From Bacteroidales bacterium (GTDB lineage Bacteria > Bacteroidota > Bacteroidia > Bacteroidales > Dysgonomonadaceae), in contig DURL01000003.1 of NCBI GenBank assembly GCA_012837345.1, forward strand, positions 2,954 through 66,953: 64,000 nt of DNA, read 5' to 3'. Below, in pieces: positions 26,080 to 50,414 of the stretch. Each line of letters starts with the position of its first letter. Position 1 is the stretch's first letter. The position numbers were made by a program, and so were the translations under genes. The notes under the pieces were generated by a model that was not told the origin of the DNA, ran no database searches, and saw only the letters and a program-made list of their open reading frames with translations.

Positions 26080-27162
26080 CTACACATATTCGTCTCCATA
26101 TCGGAATTTGACATCGGTAACAAAATGCTTGATGCGTTGCTCCTCGCTCTTTTTGCAGATCAGCAACACATTGTCCGATTCTGCCACGATGTAGTCATCC
26201 AGTCCCTGGATCACTACCAGCTTATCGTCGCTCATGGCTACCACATTGTCATTGCTCTCAACGAAAAGTGCCTTGCACTGTAGATTGGCATTGTTGTTCT
26301 CGTCACGATCGGAGATCTCATGCAGGGCGCCCCAAGTCCCCAGGTCACTCCATCCGAAATCGGAGATGTTGACAAAGACATTGTCAGCTTTCTCAAGGAT
26401 ACCGTAATCAATTGAAATGTTGGCACAGAAAGGGAAGGTCTCATCCACAAACTGTTTCTCCCGGGGGGTATTAAAGTATTCTCTGCCTTCATCAAACTTC
26501 TGTACGATATCAGGCAGGTAACTGCTGAAAGCCTCCAGAATACTGTTCACATTCCAAAGAAAGATGCCCGAGTTCCACATAAACTCACCGCTTTCCACAA
26601 ATTTCTTCGCCAGCTCCAGGTCCGGTTTCTCGGTAAATGCTTTCACCCGGCCGATTCCCTGACCGTCATTGCCATCCACCTGAATGTAACCATAACCGGT
26701 CTCGGGTCTGCTTGGCCTGATTCCTAACGTGAGAAGTACCGGATTCGCTGCCACAAAATCCAGTCCGCTGTGCATATCAGATGCAAACTGATCTTCCCGC
26801 AGGATCAGGTGATCAGAGGGTGCCACGATGATGTTGGCGTTCGGATCAACCGCAAATATACGGTAAGAAGCGAAGGCGATGGCGGGAGCAGTATTGCGAC
26901 GTAACGGCTCCAACAGCAACTGATGATCCTTAAGCTCGGGAAGCTGTTGTTTGGTCATCGCGGCATAGGCATCATTGGTGACAATAAAGATGTGCTCAGG
27001 GGGAACAATCTTTTTAAACCTGTCGTAGGTACTCTGTAACAGGGAACGGCCGGTACCGAAAAAATCAAGAAACTGTTTGGGTTTGTCTTCTTTGCTGAAT
27101 GGCCAGAAGCGACTTCCCACACCGCCGCTCATGATCACACAATAATTATGGTTGTTTCTCAT
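26080..27162 (-). CDS. Mannose-1-phosphate guanylyltransferase
   Basis: VIMSGGVGSRFWP, PKQF, EPLRRNTAPAI, PSDH, ETGYGYI, WNSGIF and WSDLGTW. ATG 27162 preferred. Confidence 0.93.
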   Translation of the reverse strand: MRNNHNYCVIMSGGVGSRFWPFSKEDKPKQFLDFFGTGRSLLQSTYDRFKKIVPPEHIFIVTNDAYAAMTKQQLPELKDHQLLLEPLRRNTAPAIAFASYRIFAVDPNANIIVAPSDHLILREDQFASDMHSGLDFVAANPVLLTLGIRPSRPETGYGYIQVDGNDGQGIGRVKAFTEKPDLELAKKFVESGEFMWNSGIFLWNVNSILEAFSSYLPDIVQKFDEGREYFNTPREKQFVDETFPFCANISIDYGILEKADNVFVNISDFGWSDLGTWGALHEISDRDENNNANLQCKALFVESNDNVVAMSDDKLVVIQGLDDYIVAESDNVLLICKKSEEQRIKHFVTDVKFRYGDEYV

Positions 27163-27383
27163 TTCCAAGATGGTATATGTTATTAAAAAAAGGGAGATCT
27201 CATACGTTTGGTCCAACCTCCATGCAGGTTCAAATCTCTATCATTAACACCTTTTCGTGACATTTTGTTTTCTCAATATCCAATTGTACCTATAAAGATA
27301 GCAAACAATTCCGGACGAAAATAGAAATCAGGAATCGAATCGAAAAAAAAGAGCGATCACTTTTATTATCTCAAAAATATATG

Positions 27384-27391
27384 TACTTTTG
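27384..27391 (+). promoter_or_regulatory. Sigma-A -7 element for tRNA-Leu
   Basis: TACTTTTG, 19 nt before the tRNA. Confidence 0.7.
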
Positions 27392-27410
27392 CACTCACTT
27401 TTTGGCAGAT

Positions 27411-27494
27411 GCCCAGATGGCGGAATTGGTAGACGCGCTGGTCTCAAACACCAGTGGATTCACTTCCATGCCGGTTCGATCCCGGCTCTGGGTA
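27411..27494 (+). tRNA. tRNA-Leu(CAA)
   Basis: Acceptor stem GCCCAGA/TCTGGGT, D-loop with TGGTA, anticodon loop CTCAAAC, long variable arm, GGTTCGATCCC T-arm. Confidence 0.95.
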
Positions 27495-27605
27495 CTTGAT
27501 AATCAAAACCCTAATTGATAATTAATCGGTTAGGGTTTAAATTTTCGATTTGTTCCCAAATTGTTCCCAAACAGCATTTGTTTTATTAATCAATCTGTAT
27601 AACCA

Positions 27606-27838
27606 TTGATCACAACCGAAAAATTTATTGAAGTTTTCTGTATTGCCGACGTTTTTTGTGCAGAATATGAGAATGAAATCCGGAATCATCAACTTCAAGC
27701 AGGTGACATGACGAAAAGGGTGAATTGCTGCATTGGTGGCATTTTGTTGCTTTTCCAAAAAGCCTTCAATCAAATTTGAAGTGGAGAAGTCAACTCAATT
27801 AACCAATTGGGGATAAATTGTTATCCCGAACTCACGTT
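27606..27838 (+). pseudogene. Internally deleted IS982-family transposase remnant with right terminal repeat
   Basis: Manual translation: LITTEKFIEVFCIADVFCAEYENEIRNHQL (N-terminus) joined to IAALVAFCCFS/KPSIKFEVEKSTQLT (C-terminus, frameshifted), then TTATCCCGAACTCACGTT. Family assignment is by recognition, not by search. Confidence 0.7.
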
Positions 27839-27847
27839 AATCGTTTT

Positions 27848-28669
27848 TTACTGAAATTTTACCATGTCCGCTAACTGTAAAAAGTAGTCGTTAGACCAAA
27901 TCTCCAACTCTTTCGTACTTTTTAGGAATCGGGCTACATCTTCTTTAACCATCTCAATATCTGTTGTGGCAAGTCGCTCTTTTAGTTGATGGATAAACTC
28001 TTCTTTACTCATTTCGATACCGTCAAATTGCTTGATTCGCTCTTGCAAGTGACTGAAGTTCAGTTTTACGCCACGTCTTACATACCATTCAAAATCGCAC
28101 CAGTCACGCCCTTTTACCCGTTGTTTCCATTTTCTGAATACTAAAGCGTGCATTTTACCGGCATACAAATCCGATAAAACAAAGCAGCGTGTCATAAATG
28201 AGTATGGGAGCAACAATAATTTTTGTTCGGTATCAAATTTCATTGGTGGGTCAATATCCACTTCTATTTTGATTTTGACAGATTTATCGGTTTGAAATTT
28301 CAGATCGTAAACCGCTGTATTGTCTTTTAAAAAAGCAGATTCCACCCGCCCGAATGTTCTTTTTTCTTTCTTTGAAATAACAACATCCTTTCCCGTGGCA
28401 CTGAATTCATTGATGATTGACGGAAAAAACTCTTCGAGTCGAAAATCGTTATTTGGAGCGATAAGTGAAAAATCCATATCTTCCGAAAAACGCTCCATCC
28501 CATGGAAAATACGCAAACAAGTACCACCGTAAAACGCAGCTTTATTGAAAAATCCGCCGCGATAAAGCCCTGCAAGTGTAATTTCCTGCATCACTTCATA
28601 AGTGGCATTTGTCAGTTCGCTTTGTTTATTTATCTCATAACGAGCCAACATTTGGTCGAATATACTCAT
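27848..28669 (-). CDS. abiEii: AbiEii-family nucleotidyltransferase toxin (type IV TA)
   Basis: AAFYGGTCLRIFHGMERFSEDMDFS, KIKIEVD, AGKMHA and KGRDWCD. Confidence 0.88.
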   Translation of the reverse strand: MSIFDQMLARYEINKQSELTNATYEVMQEITLAGLYRGGFFNKAAFYGGTCLRIFHGMERFSEDMDFSLIAPNNDFRLEEFFPSIINEFSATGKDVVISKKEKRTFGRVESAFLKDNTAVYDLKFQTDKSVKIKIEVDIDPPMKFDTEQKLLLLPYSFMTRCFVLSDLYAGKMHALVFRKWKQRVKGRDWCDFEWYVRRGVKLNFSHLQERIKQFDGIEMSKEEFIHQLKERLATTDIEMVKEDVARFLKSTKELEIWSNDYFLQLADMVKFQ

Positions 28670-29289
28670 CGCTTCAGCAGTTTTATAAGGTTATTTATCT
28701 CGGATTTTTTCTTACTTACATGGGCACATTGCTCAAAAACAGTTGCATCCATTTTATAAAATTCGTCCATATCAAAGCGTATATCTTCCTCTAAGTAGAC
28801 TTCGATATTTTTTACATACCTGAGCCGCAATTGGGGCGTGTAAACAATTAAATCACACAGTGCTTTTTCGGGCGAAGCTATCAGATAAGCACAGTCATTA
28901 TCCACTACTTGACGAACACCGATTGAATAATAATCGGAAGTACAATGTATGTATTCAAATCGTCCGATGCTATTATTGTATATTTTCGCCGTCTTAAATG
29001 TAAGTGAAGTTGTGGTATGAACGCTTTCGGGGATAAGTCCATAATGACGAAGCGCGGCTTGCATCGACACATAAGAAGGTCCATAAAGATGGTTAGCGAT
29101 TAACTCCACAGAAAGTAATTGATTGGAAACCATTGGGGAAACAACGTATAAACCCTTTTTCAGCCTTATCAAACTACCTTTCTGTTCAAGATTTGCAATC
29201 TTCTTTTGGGGATATTTATAAGAGGTAAAAAGAGTTTCCAAGACTCCCACATCAACCGGTACTGTTCCAAATTGCTTTAGTGCTTCCAT
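28666..29289 (-). CDS. abiEi: AbiEi-family antitoxin / transcriptional regulator (type IV TA)
   Basis: N-terminal wHTH-like LIRLKKGLY, PSYVSMQAALRHYGLIPE, IASPEKALCD; 4-bp ATGA overlap with the toxin gene. Confidence 0.82.
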   Translation of the reverse strand: MEALKQFGTVPVDVGVLETLFTSYKYPQKKIANLEQKGSLIRLKKGLYVVSPMVSNQLLSVELIANHLYGPSYVSMQAALRHYGLIPESVHTTTSLTFKTAKIYNNSIGRFEYIHCTSDYYSIGVRQVVDNDCAYLIASPEKALCDLIVYTPQLRLRYVKNIEVYLEEDIRFDMDEFYKMDATVFEQCAHVSKKKSEINNLIKLLKR

Positions 29290-29620
29290 TTTGCAAAAAT
29301 AGTCATTATTTCGATAGATAACGCATTTTTTATTCGTTTTCTACTAGAAATGTGTCGGTTTTGCCTTTTAGTCATTCTTCCTGGCAGATTTTATGATAAA
29401 TGCAGAAACCTTCATATCTTTATGAAATTGAATTACTCGGAAAAGACAATGACTGTTCTCAAATTGTTCCCACAAGGTGAACCACAAAGTTAGCCGAAAT
29501 CCATAAAAATCAACTCCGATAATTGTGGGAGTTGATATATGGGTACAATAAAGGTAGAGACACCGAGGAGCTGTCTCGTCCTGAAATAGGGGGTTCCTCT
29601 AAAAGTAAATTTAAAAACAG

Positions 29621-29659
29621 AAAAAAGGCCATCTCATGTTGTATGAGACGGCCTCTTTT
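29621..29659 (-). terminator. Intrinsic terminator of eno
   Basis: AGGCC-ATCTCAT / ATGAGA-C-GGCCT stem with A/T runs on both sides. Confidence 0.75.
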
Positions 29660-29681
29660 GAATAGGGTTGAAAAAAACTAT

Positions 29682-30977
<1,296 letters not shown>

Positions 30978-48572: not shown

Positions 48573-49475
48573 ATGTGGAAAGAAAAATTCATAGACTATC
48601 TCCGTTATGAGAAGAACTACTCTCCTCAAACGGAGATTTCTTATTTTAGGGATATCACCCAGTTTGAGGATTTCATCACTGGTGAATGCGGATCATATGA
48701 CCCGGCAATGGTGGAGACCGATCAGATCCGAAACTGGATGATCCGGCTCATGGAACTGGGAGTGAAACCTCGCTCCGTAAACAGAAAGTTAAGCGCTGTT
48801 CGATCCTATTTCCGCTTCCTGAAACGAAAAGAAGTTGTCAGCCGCAACCCTGCAGAAGGGATCAACGGCCCCAAAACACCCAGGGTACTGCCCGGTTTTG
48901 TAAAAGACCGTGAACTGTCTGAGATCATTGATACGGCTGACGCCTACCCCGATGACTTTTGCGGACATCGGGACCGCTTTCTGATTGAGTTACTCTATCT
49001 CACCGGAATGCGCCGTGCAGAACTGATAGCCTTGCGCGACAGTGATGTCGATTTTGACACATCGACACTCCGGGTTACGGGTAAGCGAAACAAACAACGC
49101 ATCATCCCCTTCTCCCACAGCACGAAAGGAAAAATAAGGGATTACATGAGCAAAAGAGATGCAGAAGTGGAAAACAAATCACCTTTTCTCTTTGTTAAGA
49201 ATGATGGAAACCCTTTATACCCAAAATTAGTGTACAACATTATCCACACACACCTTAGCAGCATCCCCACCCTTTCCAAAAAAAGCCCTCACGTGCTGCG
49301 GCACTCATTTGCGACTGAGATGCTCAACAACGGAGCCGATATCAACGCAGTGAAAGAGCTATTAGGACACACCAGTCTTGCATCCACCCAGATCTACACA
49401 CATGTGACACTCGAAGAGATAAAAAAAACATATGATCACGCCCACCCAAGGGCACAAAAAATGAAGGAGGAATAG
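48573..49475 (+). CDS. xerC: Chromosomal tyrosine recombinase XerC/XerD type
   Basis: Complete catalytic set: TGMRRAEL (R), GKRNKQR (K), HVLRH (HxxR), LGH, TQIYTH (Y); conserved rpsU-xer-hpf-tRNA-tuf context. Confidence 0.85.
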   Translation: MWKEKFIDYLRYEKNYSPQTEISYFRDITQFEDFITGECGSYDPAMVETDQIRNWMIRLMELGVKPRSVNRKLSAVRSYFRFLKRKEVVSRNPAEGINGPKTPRVLPGFVKDRELSEIIDTADAYPDDFCGHRDRFLIELLYLTGMRRAELIALRDSDVDFDTSTLRVTGKRNKQRIIPFSHSTKGKIRDYMSKRDAEVENKSPFLFVKNDGNPLYPKLVYNIIHTHLSSIPTLSKKSPHVLRHSFATEMLNNGADINAVKELLGHTSLASTQIYTHVTLEEIKKTYDHAHPRAQKMKEE

Positions 49476-49877: not shown

Positions 49878-49951
49878 GCCTCTTTAGCTCAGTTGGCCAG
49901 AGCACGTGATTTGTAATCTCGGGGTCGTTGGTTCGAATCCGACAAGAGGCT
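49878..49951 (+). tRNA. tRNA-Thr(TGT)
   Basis: GCCTCTT/AAGAGGC acceptor stem, anticodon loop TTTGTAA, GGTTCGAATCC. Confidence 0.93.
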
Positions 49952-49963
49952 CAAAAACATGAA

Positions 49964-50046
49964 GGGCAGTTACCAGAGTGGCCAAATGGGGCTGACTGTA
50001 ACTCAGCTGGCTTACGCCTTCGGTGGTTCGAATCCATCACTGCCCA
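49964..50046 (+). tRNA. tRNA-Tyr(GTA)
   Basis: GGGCAGT/ACTGCCC acceptor stem, loop CTGTAAC, long variable arm. Confidence 0.95.
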
Positions 50047-50053
50047 CGGTTTC

Positions 50054-50126
50054 GATTTGATGATTTGATGATTTGCTGATTCGATCCAATCATCAGCTAG
50101 TTTGCTAATCAACACATCACCGAATC
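50054..50126. repeat. Inverted arrays of GATTTGAT-like octamers in the tRNA-Tyr/tRNA-Gly spacer
   Basis: GATTTGAT GATTTGAT GATTTGCT GATTCGAT, followed by GAT-phased octamers on the opposite strand. Confidence 0.6.
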
Positions 50127-50132
50127 AGTTTT

Positions 50133-50205
50133 GCGGAAGTAGCTCAGTTGATAGAGCATTAGCCTTCCAAGCTGAGGGTCGCGGGTTTGAGTCCCGTCTT
50201 CCGCT
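50133..50205 (+). tRNA. tRNA-Gly(TCC)
   Basis: GCGGAAG/CTTCCGC acceptor stem, loop CTTCCAA; CCA encoded at 50206-50208; A19 and T56 replace G19/C56. Confidence 0.93.
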
Positions 50206-50214
50206 CCAGTTATT

Positions 50215-50286
<72 letters not shown>

Positions 50287-50414
50287 CAACGACAGATCGC
50301 GCAATGCTTCATCAAGACAAAAGGCCGGGTGCCGGGTGTCTTGAGTTTCACTGTTTACAAACGAAAGAATCAGAAATACAATTTTTTATTTTACACTAAT
50401 TAATAGGACATTTT

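What the first reader, a model, noticed from the sequence alone, without database searches (positions are those of the whole stretch)
27489..29546. Integrase-less 2 kb defence islet at tRNA-Leu with att-like architecture at both ends
Seen, left end: tRNA 3' end TGGGTAC, a hairpin AAACCCTAA..GATAATT..TTAGGGTTT, then tandem 11-mers TTGTTCCCAAA (27550-27571). Right end: AAATTGTTCCCA (29461), a hairpin ATCAACTCC-GATAATT..-GGAGTTGAT (29509-29536), then TGGGTAC (29540-29546). G+C spot counts are 22/60 (line 27901) and 18/60 (line 28681). Established: Bacteroidetes tyrosine integrases target tRNA 3' ends and use short cores plus arm-type repeats. Inference: a minimal element, either decayed or mobilised in trans, and retained by TA addiction or phage defence.
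Basis: partly seen in the sequence, partly recalled or inferred. Interest (0 to 1): 0.65.

Follow-up and report, generated by a model that had tools for sequence, protein, structure and literature searches.

The report
Decayed tRNA-Leu mobile element keeping AbiE
The 2 kb between tRNA-Leu and the enolase gene is the worn-down remnant of a mobile element that once inserted at the tRNA's end: it has lost its integrase and transfer genes but keeps both attachment-site ends and an intact AbiE toxin-antitoxin / phage-defence pair, which is a known kind of relic and not a new system.

Summary
Window 27496-29546 (2051 bp, 36.8% G+C against 50% for the window) is an insertion at the 3' end of tRNA-Leu(CAA). 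The four closest sister species have an empty site of 119-135 bp. The window has 135 bp between the right-hand TGGGTAC and the eno stop.

Both ends match intact elements at this tRNA. The left end is core, then an element-borne tRNA terminator hairpin, then a tandem 11-mer pair 55 nt from the tRNA end. The right end is the same tandem pair (18/19), then the core. New evidence:
- A 5' stump of the lost integrase gene (MKVSAFIIKSARKND*) lies beside the right repeat.
- An IS982-family transposase fragment lies beside the left repeat.
- Relatives carry a closely related AbiE pair (AbiEii 88% identical) directly after an intact integrase of the same family.

The element looks decayed, not mobile. 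Its right arm is about 78 nt shorter than in about 20 intact relatives. The core copy is 7 nt instead of 12 or more. It is fixed and colinear in all 15 same-species contigs. No empty junction or excision joint was found. AbiE is intact and probably explains retention. This is a CIME-like relic, a new member of a known kind.

The parts
27411..27495 (+). tRNA-Leu(CAA), the integration target. Its last 7 nt, TGGGTAC (27489-27495), are the left core/crossover copy.
   Evidence: ARAGORN; Rfam tRNA 54.9 bits. Relatives carry elements or empty sites at exactly this end.
27496..27549 (+). P' arm of attL. It holds the element-borne terminator hairpin for the tRNA (stem 27506-27538).
   Evidence: Fold -19.9 kcal/mol, z -5.1. 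In L037 each element of a tandem pair starts with its own hairpin after a 12-nt core copy. One hairpin-plus-repeat module is near-identical in six species whose ManC is only 73-90% identical.
27550..27571 (+). Left tandem 11-mer pair TTGTTCCCAAA x2, an arm-type protein-binding site 55 nt from the tRNA end.
   Evidence: A strict period-11 tandem at +54 to +59 is present in 14 of 36 relatives, against 0.1% of control windows. The same 19-mer sits 55-59 nt after tRNA-Leu in metagenome attL loci.
27607..27841 (+). Two-piece remnant of an IS982-family insertion sequence (about 27607-27719 and 27723-27841). The transposase N-terminus is FIEVFCIADVFCAEYE...
   Evidence: All four weak tblastn hits in plasmids fall on annotated IS982-family transposases. 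Depth is up to about 30-fold higher than its neighbours in metagenome contigs, with break points at 27719/27723 and 27841.
27848..28669 (-). abiEii, the DUF1814 nucleotidyltransferase toxin (273 aa), intact.
   Evidence: Pfam PF08843 1.5e-28; PADLOC AbiEii 2.1e-112. Motifs I-IV of Dy et al. 2014 can be read in the sequence: YGG..RFSEDMD, K..7..R, RDWCD.
28666..29289 (-). abiEi, the antitoxin and autorepressor (207 aa). It overlaps abiEii by 4 nt.
   Evidence: PADLOC AbiEi 7.6e-74. Pfam AbiEi_4 and NCBIfam TAA_AbiEi both score below their cut-offs. The 4-nt overlap matches the S. agalactiae operon.
29290..29349 (-). The AbiE cassette's own promoter region. The 5' edge of the cassette is conserved in other genomic contexts.
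   Evidence: The alignable stretch upstream of abiEi in L108, L110 and L113 starts at the same 'TAGAAAAC..' point. It contains TATTTTTG, a Bacteroidetes -7-like motif (the motif assignment is from memory).
29350..29417 (-). 5' stump of the lost tyrosine integrase gene: MKVSAFIIKSARKND* followed by a few more alignable codons.
   Evidence: 38 of 45 nt and 13 of 15 codons match the integrase start of L131. It lies in the same position relative to the tandem repeat as in 37 intact loci.
29454..29472 (+). Right tandem 11-mer pair TGTTCTCAAATTGTTCCCA, the arm-type site of the P arm.
   Evidence: Matches the left pair 18/19; 0 of 300 shuffles reach this.
29473..29539 (+). Shortened P arm with hairpin 29509-29536. 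On the minus strand the hairpin is followed by UUUUUA.
   Evidence: Fold z -6.1 on the plus strand and -5.4 on the minus strand. The arm is 67 nt here against about 145 nt in intact relatives whose integrases are 61-100% identical to one another.
29540..29546 (+). Right core copy TGGGTAC, the attR crossover remnant.
   Evidence: From here to the eno stop is 135 nt, matching the 119-135 nt empty-site interval of sister species. Intact relatives carry 12-16 nt of the tRNA end at this position.
29547..29681 (.). Native chromosomal DNA (B' side): a weak hairpin, then the eno terminator at 29616-29654.
   Evidence: The eno terminator folds at -24.3 kcal/mol, z -7. The layout parallels the empty sites L023, L025, L026 and L027.

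Best explanation
Window 27496-29546 is the decayed remnant of an integrative, probably mobilizable, element of a Bacteroidota family. The family inserts by tyrosine-integrase site-specific recombination at the very 3' end of tRNA-Leu(CAA).

Shown:
- The segment is an insertion relative to sister species.
- Both of its ends have the family's attL and attR layout.
- A stump of the integrase gene remains at the right end.
- An IS982-family fragment lies between abiEii and the left repeat.
- The only intact genes are abiEi and abiEii.

Inferred history:
1. The ancestor looked like the L110-L112 elements: attR, integrase, abiEi, abiEii, excisionase-like HTH_17, VapE/primase, MobC, relaxase, cargo, attL.
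2. One deletion removed the integrase from about codon 23 to its stop.
3. A second loss, probably linked to the IS982 insertion just after the abiEii stop, removed everything between abiEii and the left arm site.
4. About 78 nt of the right arm, and all but 7 nt of the core copy, are also gone or diverged. The relic therefore probably cannot be excised any more.

Inferred function:
- The element-borne hairpin now terminates the tRNA transcript.
- AbiE acts as described for the family. AbiEi represses the operon and neutralises AbiEii. AbiEii is a GTP-binding nucleotidyltransferase whose relatives (MenT) block tRNA acceptor stems.
- This gives abortive-infection phage defence and addiction, which would favour keeping the segment while the rest decayed.
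For: Insertion:
- L023, L025, L026 and L027 (ManC 86-90% identical) have tRNA-Leu, one hairpin and the eno terminator in 119-135 bp.
- The window has 135 bp from 29547 to the eno stop.
- G+C is 36.8% against 49.9%.

Family architecture:
- L037 has the same order of parts with an intact Arm-DNA-bind_5/SAM_5/Phage_integrase protein.
- Period-11 tandems at +54 to +59 occur in 14 of 36 relatives, against 0.1% of controls.
- The exact 19-mer lies next to the integrase start in 37 loci and after tRNA-Leu in 13 or more.
- In those loci attR ends in GCGGGTCTGGGTAC or CCCCGGCTCTGGGTAC.

Integrase stump.

AbiE as cargo next to the integrase: in L110-L112, AbiEii is 88% identical and the integrase is 59-65% identical to the L101/L131 family. 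A 12-nt core copy is followed by a native hairpin.

IS982 fragment.

Fixation: 15 distinct same-species contigs plus L210 all carry a gap-free 2051-bp islet at 99.4-99.9% identity, the same as the flanks.

AbiE intact.
Against: - The core copy at the right end is only 7 nt, and TGGGTAC alone is not rare. The case for it rests on its position.
- The intergenic DNA of sister species is too diverged to show the breakpoints base by base.
- No same-species empty site was found, so the insertion is inferred from other species.
- The right arm could be naturally short in an unsampled subfamily and not deleted.
- Hairpins resembling the left one also occur at sites that look empty (L024, L025). The assignment of that hairpin to the element is therefore inference.
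- The order of the deletions and the role of the IS are inferred.
- AbiE activity is not tested.
Confidence: 0.8

Rival explanations
1. The islet is a still-functional minimal element (a true CIME or satellite). An incoming relative carrying the cognate TGTTCCCA-type integrase could excise and re-integrate it in trans or in cis.
For: - Both tandem arm sites survive (18/19), and a 7-nt identical core flanks the segment. Seven nt is the size of a typical tyrosine-recombinase overlap (overlap size from memory).
- Cognate integrases exist in the same habitats. Elements with the same repeats sit at tRNA-Leu in L060, L081 and L086.
- A landfill run holds a contig running from a stretch that matches the islet's integrase stump, through 33 unmatched letters, into the tandem repeat, at about 1/30 of the species depth.
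Against: - The right arm is 67 nt against about 145 nt in intact relatives spanning 61-100% integrase identity.
- The conserved ..TTCAAATGCGG.. core-proximal block is absent.
- The exact attB junction has 0 hits in metagenome contigs.
- No skip or back joints at the proposed ends were seen in 8 runs, though contigs hide rare forms.
- The exact AbiEii protein was found only at this locus.
- Divergence equals that of the flanks.
Confidence: 0.1
2. The integrase was not simply deleted. The AbiE pair is itself a portable cassette that landed in, or recombined into, the integrase gene and destroyed it.
For: - The cassette has the same 5' edge and ends at the abiEii stop in four unrelated contexts.
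- In L113/L114 the abiEii stop is followed directly by the last 11 codons of an integrase (NMKKELVNLLD*).
- In the window the cassette follows integrase codon ~22.
- In L108 it sits between chromosomal genes with no element around it.
Against: - In L110-L112 the cassette sits right after an intact integrase stop. A single 1.3-kb deletion from that arrangement gives the window's layout.
- No repeats, transposase or recombinase were found that could move the cassette.
Confidence: 0.2
3. The 19-nt direct repeats are the true insertion boundaries, as a target duplication or homologous-recombination substrate. On this reading the TGGGTAC match is chance and the left hairpin is native.
For: - The repeat is the strongest one in the region.
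- L024 has a degenerate TTTATTCCCCAATTG after a similar hairpin.
- TGGGTAC is not rare.
Against: - The repeat is a family-wide motif next to integrase genes and after tRNAs, not a local duplication.
- Boundaries at the repeats would leave a 283-bp interval, against 119-135 bp in the empty sites.
- Intact relatives place the tRNA-end copy beyond the repeat.
Confidence: 0.04

Closest known systems
CIMEs (cis-mobilizable elements) of streptococcal ICE/IME families, as defined in PMC5704250
   Same: [quoted passage not shown] It arose by decay of an integrated element. Tandem accretion with other elements occurs at the same site (seen here in L037).
   Different: - The host is Bacteroidota (a Proteiniphilum-like Dysgonomonadaceae), not Firmicutes.
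- The right att site appears truncated, so mobilisability is doubtful.
- The cargo is one AbiE pair, and an integrase stump is still readable.
NBU1 and MTnPi4, Bacteroidota mobilizable elements that integrate in the 3' end of tRNA-Leu (listed in PMC5704250)
   Same: The same target type (tRNA-Leu 3' end) and a tyrosine integrase. Relatives of the islet carry a primase and a relaxase, as NBU1 does (L086, L110). The review lists a TA module on NBU1.
   Different: - The islet has no integrase, relaxase or oriT.
- Details of NBU1's att site (14-bp common core, arm-type direct repeats) are from memory. The primary papers were not held.
AbiE type IV toxin-antitoxin / abortive infection system of Lactococcus pNP40 and Streptococcus agalactiae (PMC3985639); MenT/MenA relatives (PMC7450476, PMC11375011)
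   Same: A bicistronic operon with a 4-nt overlap. The toxin is a DUF1814 nucleotidyltransferase with motifs I-IV. The antitoxin has two domains. The system is known to stabilise mobile DNA and to resist phage.
   Different: A Bacteroidota variant. AbiEi scores below the Pfam and NCBIfam cut-offs and is recognised only by a PADLOC subfamily model. Its activity, target and phage range are untested.
Uncharacterised IMEs L110-L112 (wastewater and digester metagenomes)
   Same: The same integrase family (59-65% identity to L101/L131), the same tRNA-Leu core (12-nt copy), and AbiEii 88% identical sitting directly after the integrase gene.
   Different: They are intact, with integrase, HTH_17, VapE, Toprim, MobC and relaxase. 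Their arm repeats differ (TTTTCCAACA/TTTTCCCCACA type, read by eye).

Membership tests
CIME (decayed ICE/IME retaining att sites; PMC5704250) | [quoted passage not shown] | tested here: met
   The only intact ORFs are abiEi and abiEii. The integrase is reduced to about 22 codons with a stop at codon 16. There is no relaxase or primase.
CIME (decayed ICE/IME retaining att sites; PMC5704250) | Retains attL and attR | tested here: inconclusive
   Both tandem arm sites and a 7-nt core copy are present. However, the P arm is 67 nt against about 145 nt, and the core copy is 7 nt against 12-16 nt in intact relatives.
CIME (decayed ICE/IME retaining att sites; PMC5704250) | Derived from an element integrated site-specifically in the 3' end of a target gene | tested here: met
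   Sister species have empty sites. Intact elements of the same design sit at the same tRNA-Leu.
CIME (decayed ICE/IME retaining att sites; PMC5704250) | Can be excised or transferred with, or by, an incoming related element | not testable with these tools
   Only negative hints: no attB junction in metagenome contigs and no joints at the proposed att ends in Logan contigs.
AbiE type IV TA / Abi system | Toxin is a DUF1814 (PF08843) nucleotidyltransferase with motifs I-IV | tested here: met
   PF08843 100.8 bits against a cut-off of 22.5. PADLOC 373 bits. The motifs were read against Dy et al..
AbiE type IV TA / Abi system | Upstream AbiEi antitoxin gene in one operon, overlapping the toxin gene | tested here: met
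   PADLOC AbiEi 7.6e-74. 4-nt overlap at 28666-28669. Pfam (20.3 against 25) and NCBIfam (46 against 150) score below their cut-offs.
AbiE type IV TA / Abi system | Toxicity neutralised by the antitoxin; phage resistance | not testable with these tools
   Needs expression and phage challenge.
NBU1-type integrative mobilizable element | Encodes its own tyrosine integrase | tested here: not met
   Only a 5' stump remains. The only tyrosine recombinase in the window (48573-49475) is XerC/D-like and has no arm-binding domain.
NBU1-type integrative mobilizable element | Encodes a relaxase and oriT | tested here: not met
   The islet has no such ORF. Relatives L086 and L110 have Mob_Pre or Relaxase proteins.
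NBU1-type integrative mobilizable element | Integrated in the 3' end of tRNA-Leu | tested here: met
IS982 family insertion sequence | DDE transposase flanked by terminal inverted repeats | tested here: not met
   Only about 235 nt in two pieces remain. The N-terminal 40 aa give weak hits to IS982 transposases. There is no DDE domain and no left inverted repeat.

The most novel reading that the evidence does not exclude
The tandem 11-mer pair may be more than a private arm site.

At this one tRNA-Leu, related elements keep the same geometry: a pair 54-59 nt from the tRNA end and a second pair next to the integrase gene. Yet they use at least eight unrelated 11-mer sequences. That suggests arm-site specificity diversifies so that co-resident elements do not cross-excise.

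Conversely, the exact 19-mer TGTTCCCAAATTGTTCCCA recurs beside several unrelated tyrosine-integrase lineages and beside tRNA fragments, in contigs of 31-64% G+C.

If a shared, portable DNA-binding module reads this site, the islet could still be handled by many incoming elements. It would then act as a defence-carrying hitchhiker.
Probability: 0.1. Interest if true: 0.6.

Novelty: new member of a known kind. Interest (0 to 1): 0.33.

Why it matters
It is a clean, well-bounded example of how a phage-defence / addiction module outlives the mobile element that delivered it and becomes a fixed chromosomal islet. The host is a Proteiniphilum-like organism of anaerobic digesters.

It also defines the attachment-site layout of a large, so far uncharacterised family of tRNA-Leu-targeting elements in Bacteroidota: core, terminator hairpin, and tandem 11-mers at fixed distances. 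That layout can be used to delimit such elements and their relics in genomes and MAGs. Many MAG contigs break at this tRNA.

The finding does not reveal a new mechanism.

Tried and rejected
- **Repeat as target duplication.** I first thought the 19-nt repeat might be a target duplication and the left hairpin native, because L024 and L025 have similar hairpins. I rejected this once L037, L110 and the metagenome loci showed the repeat is a family motif placed inside the tRNA-end copy.
- **Empty junction.** A search for GGCTCTGGGTACAATAAAGGTAG in metagenome contigs gave 0 hits.
- **Excision joints.** I looked for excision or circle joints in Logan contigs of 8 runs and found none at the proposed ends. 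One single-contig joint, 27495 to 29681 in X17, has only 29 nt on one side and is unexplained. All runs were contigs, not raw reads, so rare forms would be missed.
- **In-window integrase.** The one tyrosine recombinase in the window (48573-49475) is XerC/D-like, not a candidate helper.
- **Small ORFs.** Pfam and NCBIfam found nothing for 27606-27779 and Pfam nothing for 29350-29493.
- **Non-coding RNA.** Rfam shows only the tRNA in 27300-29800.
- **Other copies.** Neither non-coding end of the islet has another copy in the window.
- **NBU1 att-site papers.** The primary papers were not held.
Full report
**What is there.**
- The window carries tRNA-Leu(CAA) at 27411-27495 on the plus strand.
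- On the minus strand it carries a ManC-like nucleotidyltransferase gene (26080-27132), abiEii (27848-28669), abiEi (28666-29289) and eno (29682-30965).
- The two hairpins are stable, with z -5.1 and -6.1 against shuffles.
- TGGGTAC alone is uninformative: 9 copies against 5 expected.
Both ends carry the tandem pair, as a 19-nt direct repeat matching 18/19 at 27551-27569 and 29454-29472. No shuffle out of 300 reached that.
- The segment 27496-29546 has 36.8% G+C, against 49.9% for the window and 49-54% for the flanks.

**It is an insertion.**
- A scan of one genome per species with the ManC protein returned 80 loci from Proteiniphilum, Fermentimonas, Petrimonas and other Dysgonomonadaceae.
- In the closest relatives (ManC 86-90% identical: L023, L025, L026, L027), eno lies directly beside tRNA-Leu. 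Between them are 119-135 bp holding one terminator hairpin for the tRNA and the eno terminator.
- In the window the distance from just after the right-hand TGGGTAC (29547) to the eno stop is 135 bp, with the same layout. This places the right boundary at or very near 29546.
- It also makes a 7-nt match at that spot unlikely by chance, roughly 0.002 for a +/-15 nt target (my estimate).
- Boundaries at the 19-nt repeats would leave 283 bp instead.
- L024 has 253 bp with a degenerate copy of the repeat motif. L030 has a different 1082-bp integrase-less insert.

**The ends are real attachment-site architecture.**
- Directly after tRNA-Leu, many relatives have a hairpin and then a tandem pair of 11-mers.
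- The pair starts 54-59 nt from the tRNA end in 14 of 36 loci under a strict test, against 0.1% of control windows.
- The 11-mer sequence differs between loci: TTGTTCCCAAA, TGTCCGCAATT, TTGCACCAC, TTTCCCCA, TTACAGGCA, GTGTACTAAA, ACTTGGTATAG and others.
- One hairpin-plus-repeat module is nearly identical in six species whose ManC is only 73-90% identical. It therefore travels horizontally.
- L037 shows a whole 6.3-kb element: tRNA, hairpin, tandem GTGTACTAAA pair, replication and other genes, a 393-aa integrase (Arm-DNA-bind_5, SAM_5, Phage_integrase), the same tandem pair, 120 nt, a 12-nt copy of the tRNA end (GGCTCTGGGTAC), and then the hairpin of a second element.

**The window's own repeat type.**
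- The window's 19-mer was searched in public collections.
- In 37 of 120 metagenome loci it lies 36-48 nt from the start codon of a 445-456 aa tyrosine integrase. (A few read 1-2 nt, where the query integrase carries an upstream-extended start.)
- At least 17 loci have it after a tRNA, 13 of them 55-59 nt after tRNA-Leu(CAA).
- In the integrase-side loci the repeat is followed, after 144-147 nt, by a copy of the tRNA-Leu end (GCGGGTCTGGGTAC or CCCCGGCTCTGGGTAC) and then an unrelated hairpin.
- The window islet has the same order of parts at both ends.

**Relics of the lost genes.**
- Next to the right repeat, on the minus strand at 29417-29350, is the start of an integrase gene: MKVSAFIIKSARKND, then a stop, then a few more alignable codons.
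- It matches the L131 integrase start in 13 of 15 codons and 38 of 45 nt. It lies at the same distance from the repeat as in intact loci.
- About 60 nt upstream of abiEi the similarity switches to the upstream region of AbiE cassettes from other contexts.
- Between the left repeat and the abiEii stop lies a two-piece fragment (about 27607-27719 and 27723-27841).
  - Its ORF gives four weak tblastn hits, all to annotated IS982-family transposases.
  - Its depth in metagenome contigs is up to about 30-fold that of the neighbouring DNA.
  - Contigs run on into other sequence at 27719, 27723 and 27841.

**Where AbiE came from.**
- AbiEii has many relatives in Bacteroidota.
- In L110-L112 (88% identity) the pair sits immediately after an intact integrase of the same family (59-65% identical to L101 and L131).
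- Those elements also carry DUF6043, HTH_17, VapE, Toprim, MobC and relaxase genes. They end with a 12-nt tRNA-Leu copy followed by a native-type hairpin.
- A deletion of the integrase body from such an arrangement gives the window's right half.
- In Petrimonas (L113, L114; 83%) the pair lies at the far end of an element at the same tRNA-Leu/ManC locus. There it is followed by the last 11 codons of an integrase. In L108 (89%) it lies between chromosomal genes.
- The cassette's edges are the same in all four contexts. A cassette-exchange origin therefore remains a secondary possibility.

**Decayed or mobile?**
- The right arm is 67 nt long, against about 145 nt in about 20 intact relatives whose integrases span 61-100% identity. 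It lacks their conserved core-proximal block, and the core copy is 7 nt instead of 12-16.
- All 15 distinct same-species contigs, from digesters, manure, landfill and wastewater, plus L210, carry the islet without a single gap. Identity is 99.4-99.9%, the same as for the flanks.
- The exact AbiEii sequence was found only in this context.
- The predicted empty junction has no match in metagenome contigs. No joint at the proposed att ends appears in the contigs of 8 runs, although contigs hide rare variants.
- I conclude that the element is an immobile relic, with about 10% left for trans-mobilisation.

**Function.**
- AbiEii has the four motifs shown by mutagenesis to be needed for GTP binding and toxicity (PMC3985639).
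- The genes overlap by 4 nt, as in the S. agalactiae operon.
- AbiE gives phage resistance and stabilises plasmids (PMC3985639). DUF1814 relatives inactivate tRNA acceptor stems (PMC7450476).
- Retention by addiction and/or defence is therefore plausible, but it is not tested here.
- The element-borne hairpin now serves as the tRNA terminator. The right hairpin followed by U5 on the minus strand could insulate the operon from eno read-through. Both points are inference.

**Comparison and novelty.**
- The relic fits the published notion of a CIME: a decayed ICE or IME that keeps its att sites (PMC5704250). Its parent family resembles NBU1-type mobilizable elements, which target the tRNA-Leu 3' end (same review).
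- It fails the membership tests for an IME (no integrase, no relaxase). It meets those for AbiE.
- It is a new member of a known kind.
- The more unusual by-products are:
  - the fixed geometry with highly variable 11-mer sequences at one tRNA;
  - the recurrence of the exact 19-mer beside several unrelated integrase lineages in contigs of 31-64% G+C. I could not explain this.

Noticed in passing
L117-L236 (metagenome loci); window 27551-27569: The exact 19-mer TGTTCCCAAATTGTTCCCA occurs in more than 30 clusters of unrelated flanking sequence, with G+C from 31% to 64%. It lies beside several tyrosine integrases that share no detectable similarity with the L101 family (L142, L152/L158, L211, L223, L133). 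In a 15-locus G+C-rich cluster it lies about 95 nt from a reverse-strand tRNA 3' half. In L136 two copies are inverted 775 nt apart. Why one arm-type sequence is shared so widely is unexplained.
   Followed up: partly
L021-L100, 54-59 nt after the tRNA-Leu 3' end: Related elements at the same tRNA-Leu keep the position and 11-bp period of the tandem pair. They use at least eight unrelated 11-mer sequences. Members of one integrase family (59-65% identical) differ in repeat sequence, for example L110 against L131.
   Followed up: partly
window 27607-27841: Two-piece IS982-family remnant directly after the abiEii stop. It is multi-copy in the source communities, with depth up to about 30-fold that of the neighbouring islet DNA. 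Its left end is truncated at 27607.
   Followed up: partly
L030:6557-7639: A sister species (ManC 83%) has a different integrase-less 1082-bp insert at the same site. It comprises a hairpin, a tandem ACTTGGTATAG pair at +93, and one lipoprotein-like gene. Its right end, TTGATATCTGGGCAC, resembles the window's GTTGATATATGGGTAC.
   Followed up: partly
L024, interval after tRNA-Leu (253 bp): This otherwise empty site holds a hairpin like the window's left hairpin plus a degenerate TTTATTCCCCAATTG. It may be the scar of an older element of the same type.
   Followed up: no
L022, L032, L034, L035, L042, L056, L058, L059, L069, L080: Many MAG contigs end at or inside tRNA-Leu, several near tRNA position 50-60. 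Assemblies appear to break here, as expected for a variable or repeated integration hot spot.
   Followed up: no
L108:6900-7380 and L110:8838-8870: Upstream of abiEi in L108 there are three tandem copies of a ~33-bp unit (ATTTGCCGATTTCCCTAAAATCTTTTAGG..). Just after abiEii in L110 there are three 11-bp tandem units (TTATTTGA..). Their function is unknown.
   Followed up: no
L113/L114:8822-8860: In Petrimonas the abiEii stop codon is followed immediately by the last 11 codons of an integrase gene (NMKKELVNLLD*). This suggests the AbiE cassette replaced most of an integrase there.
   Followed up: partly
window 27495/29681 (run X17); window 29322-29394 (runs X1, X13); run X10: A single Logan contig joins 27495 to 29681 with only 29 nt on one side. 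The integrase-stump region has 2-3 times the neighbouring depth, with variant unitigs. One X10 contig runs from a match to the islet's integrase stump (up to 29416), through 33 unmatched letters, into the tandem repeat, at about 1/30 of the species depth.
   Followed up: no
window 48573-49475: A XerC/XerD-type tyrosine recombinase gene (SAM_1 plus Phage_integrase, no arm-binding domain) lies upstream of a cluster of four tRNA genes at 49878-50287. It is unrelated to the islet.
   Followed up: yes
L008, L010 (same-species contigs), tRNA-proximal end: In two same-species contigs the DNA on the ManC side of the tRNA matches the window at only 92-94%, over short stretches near the contig end. This hints at strain variation or recombination on that side.
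   Followed up: no
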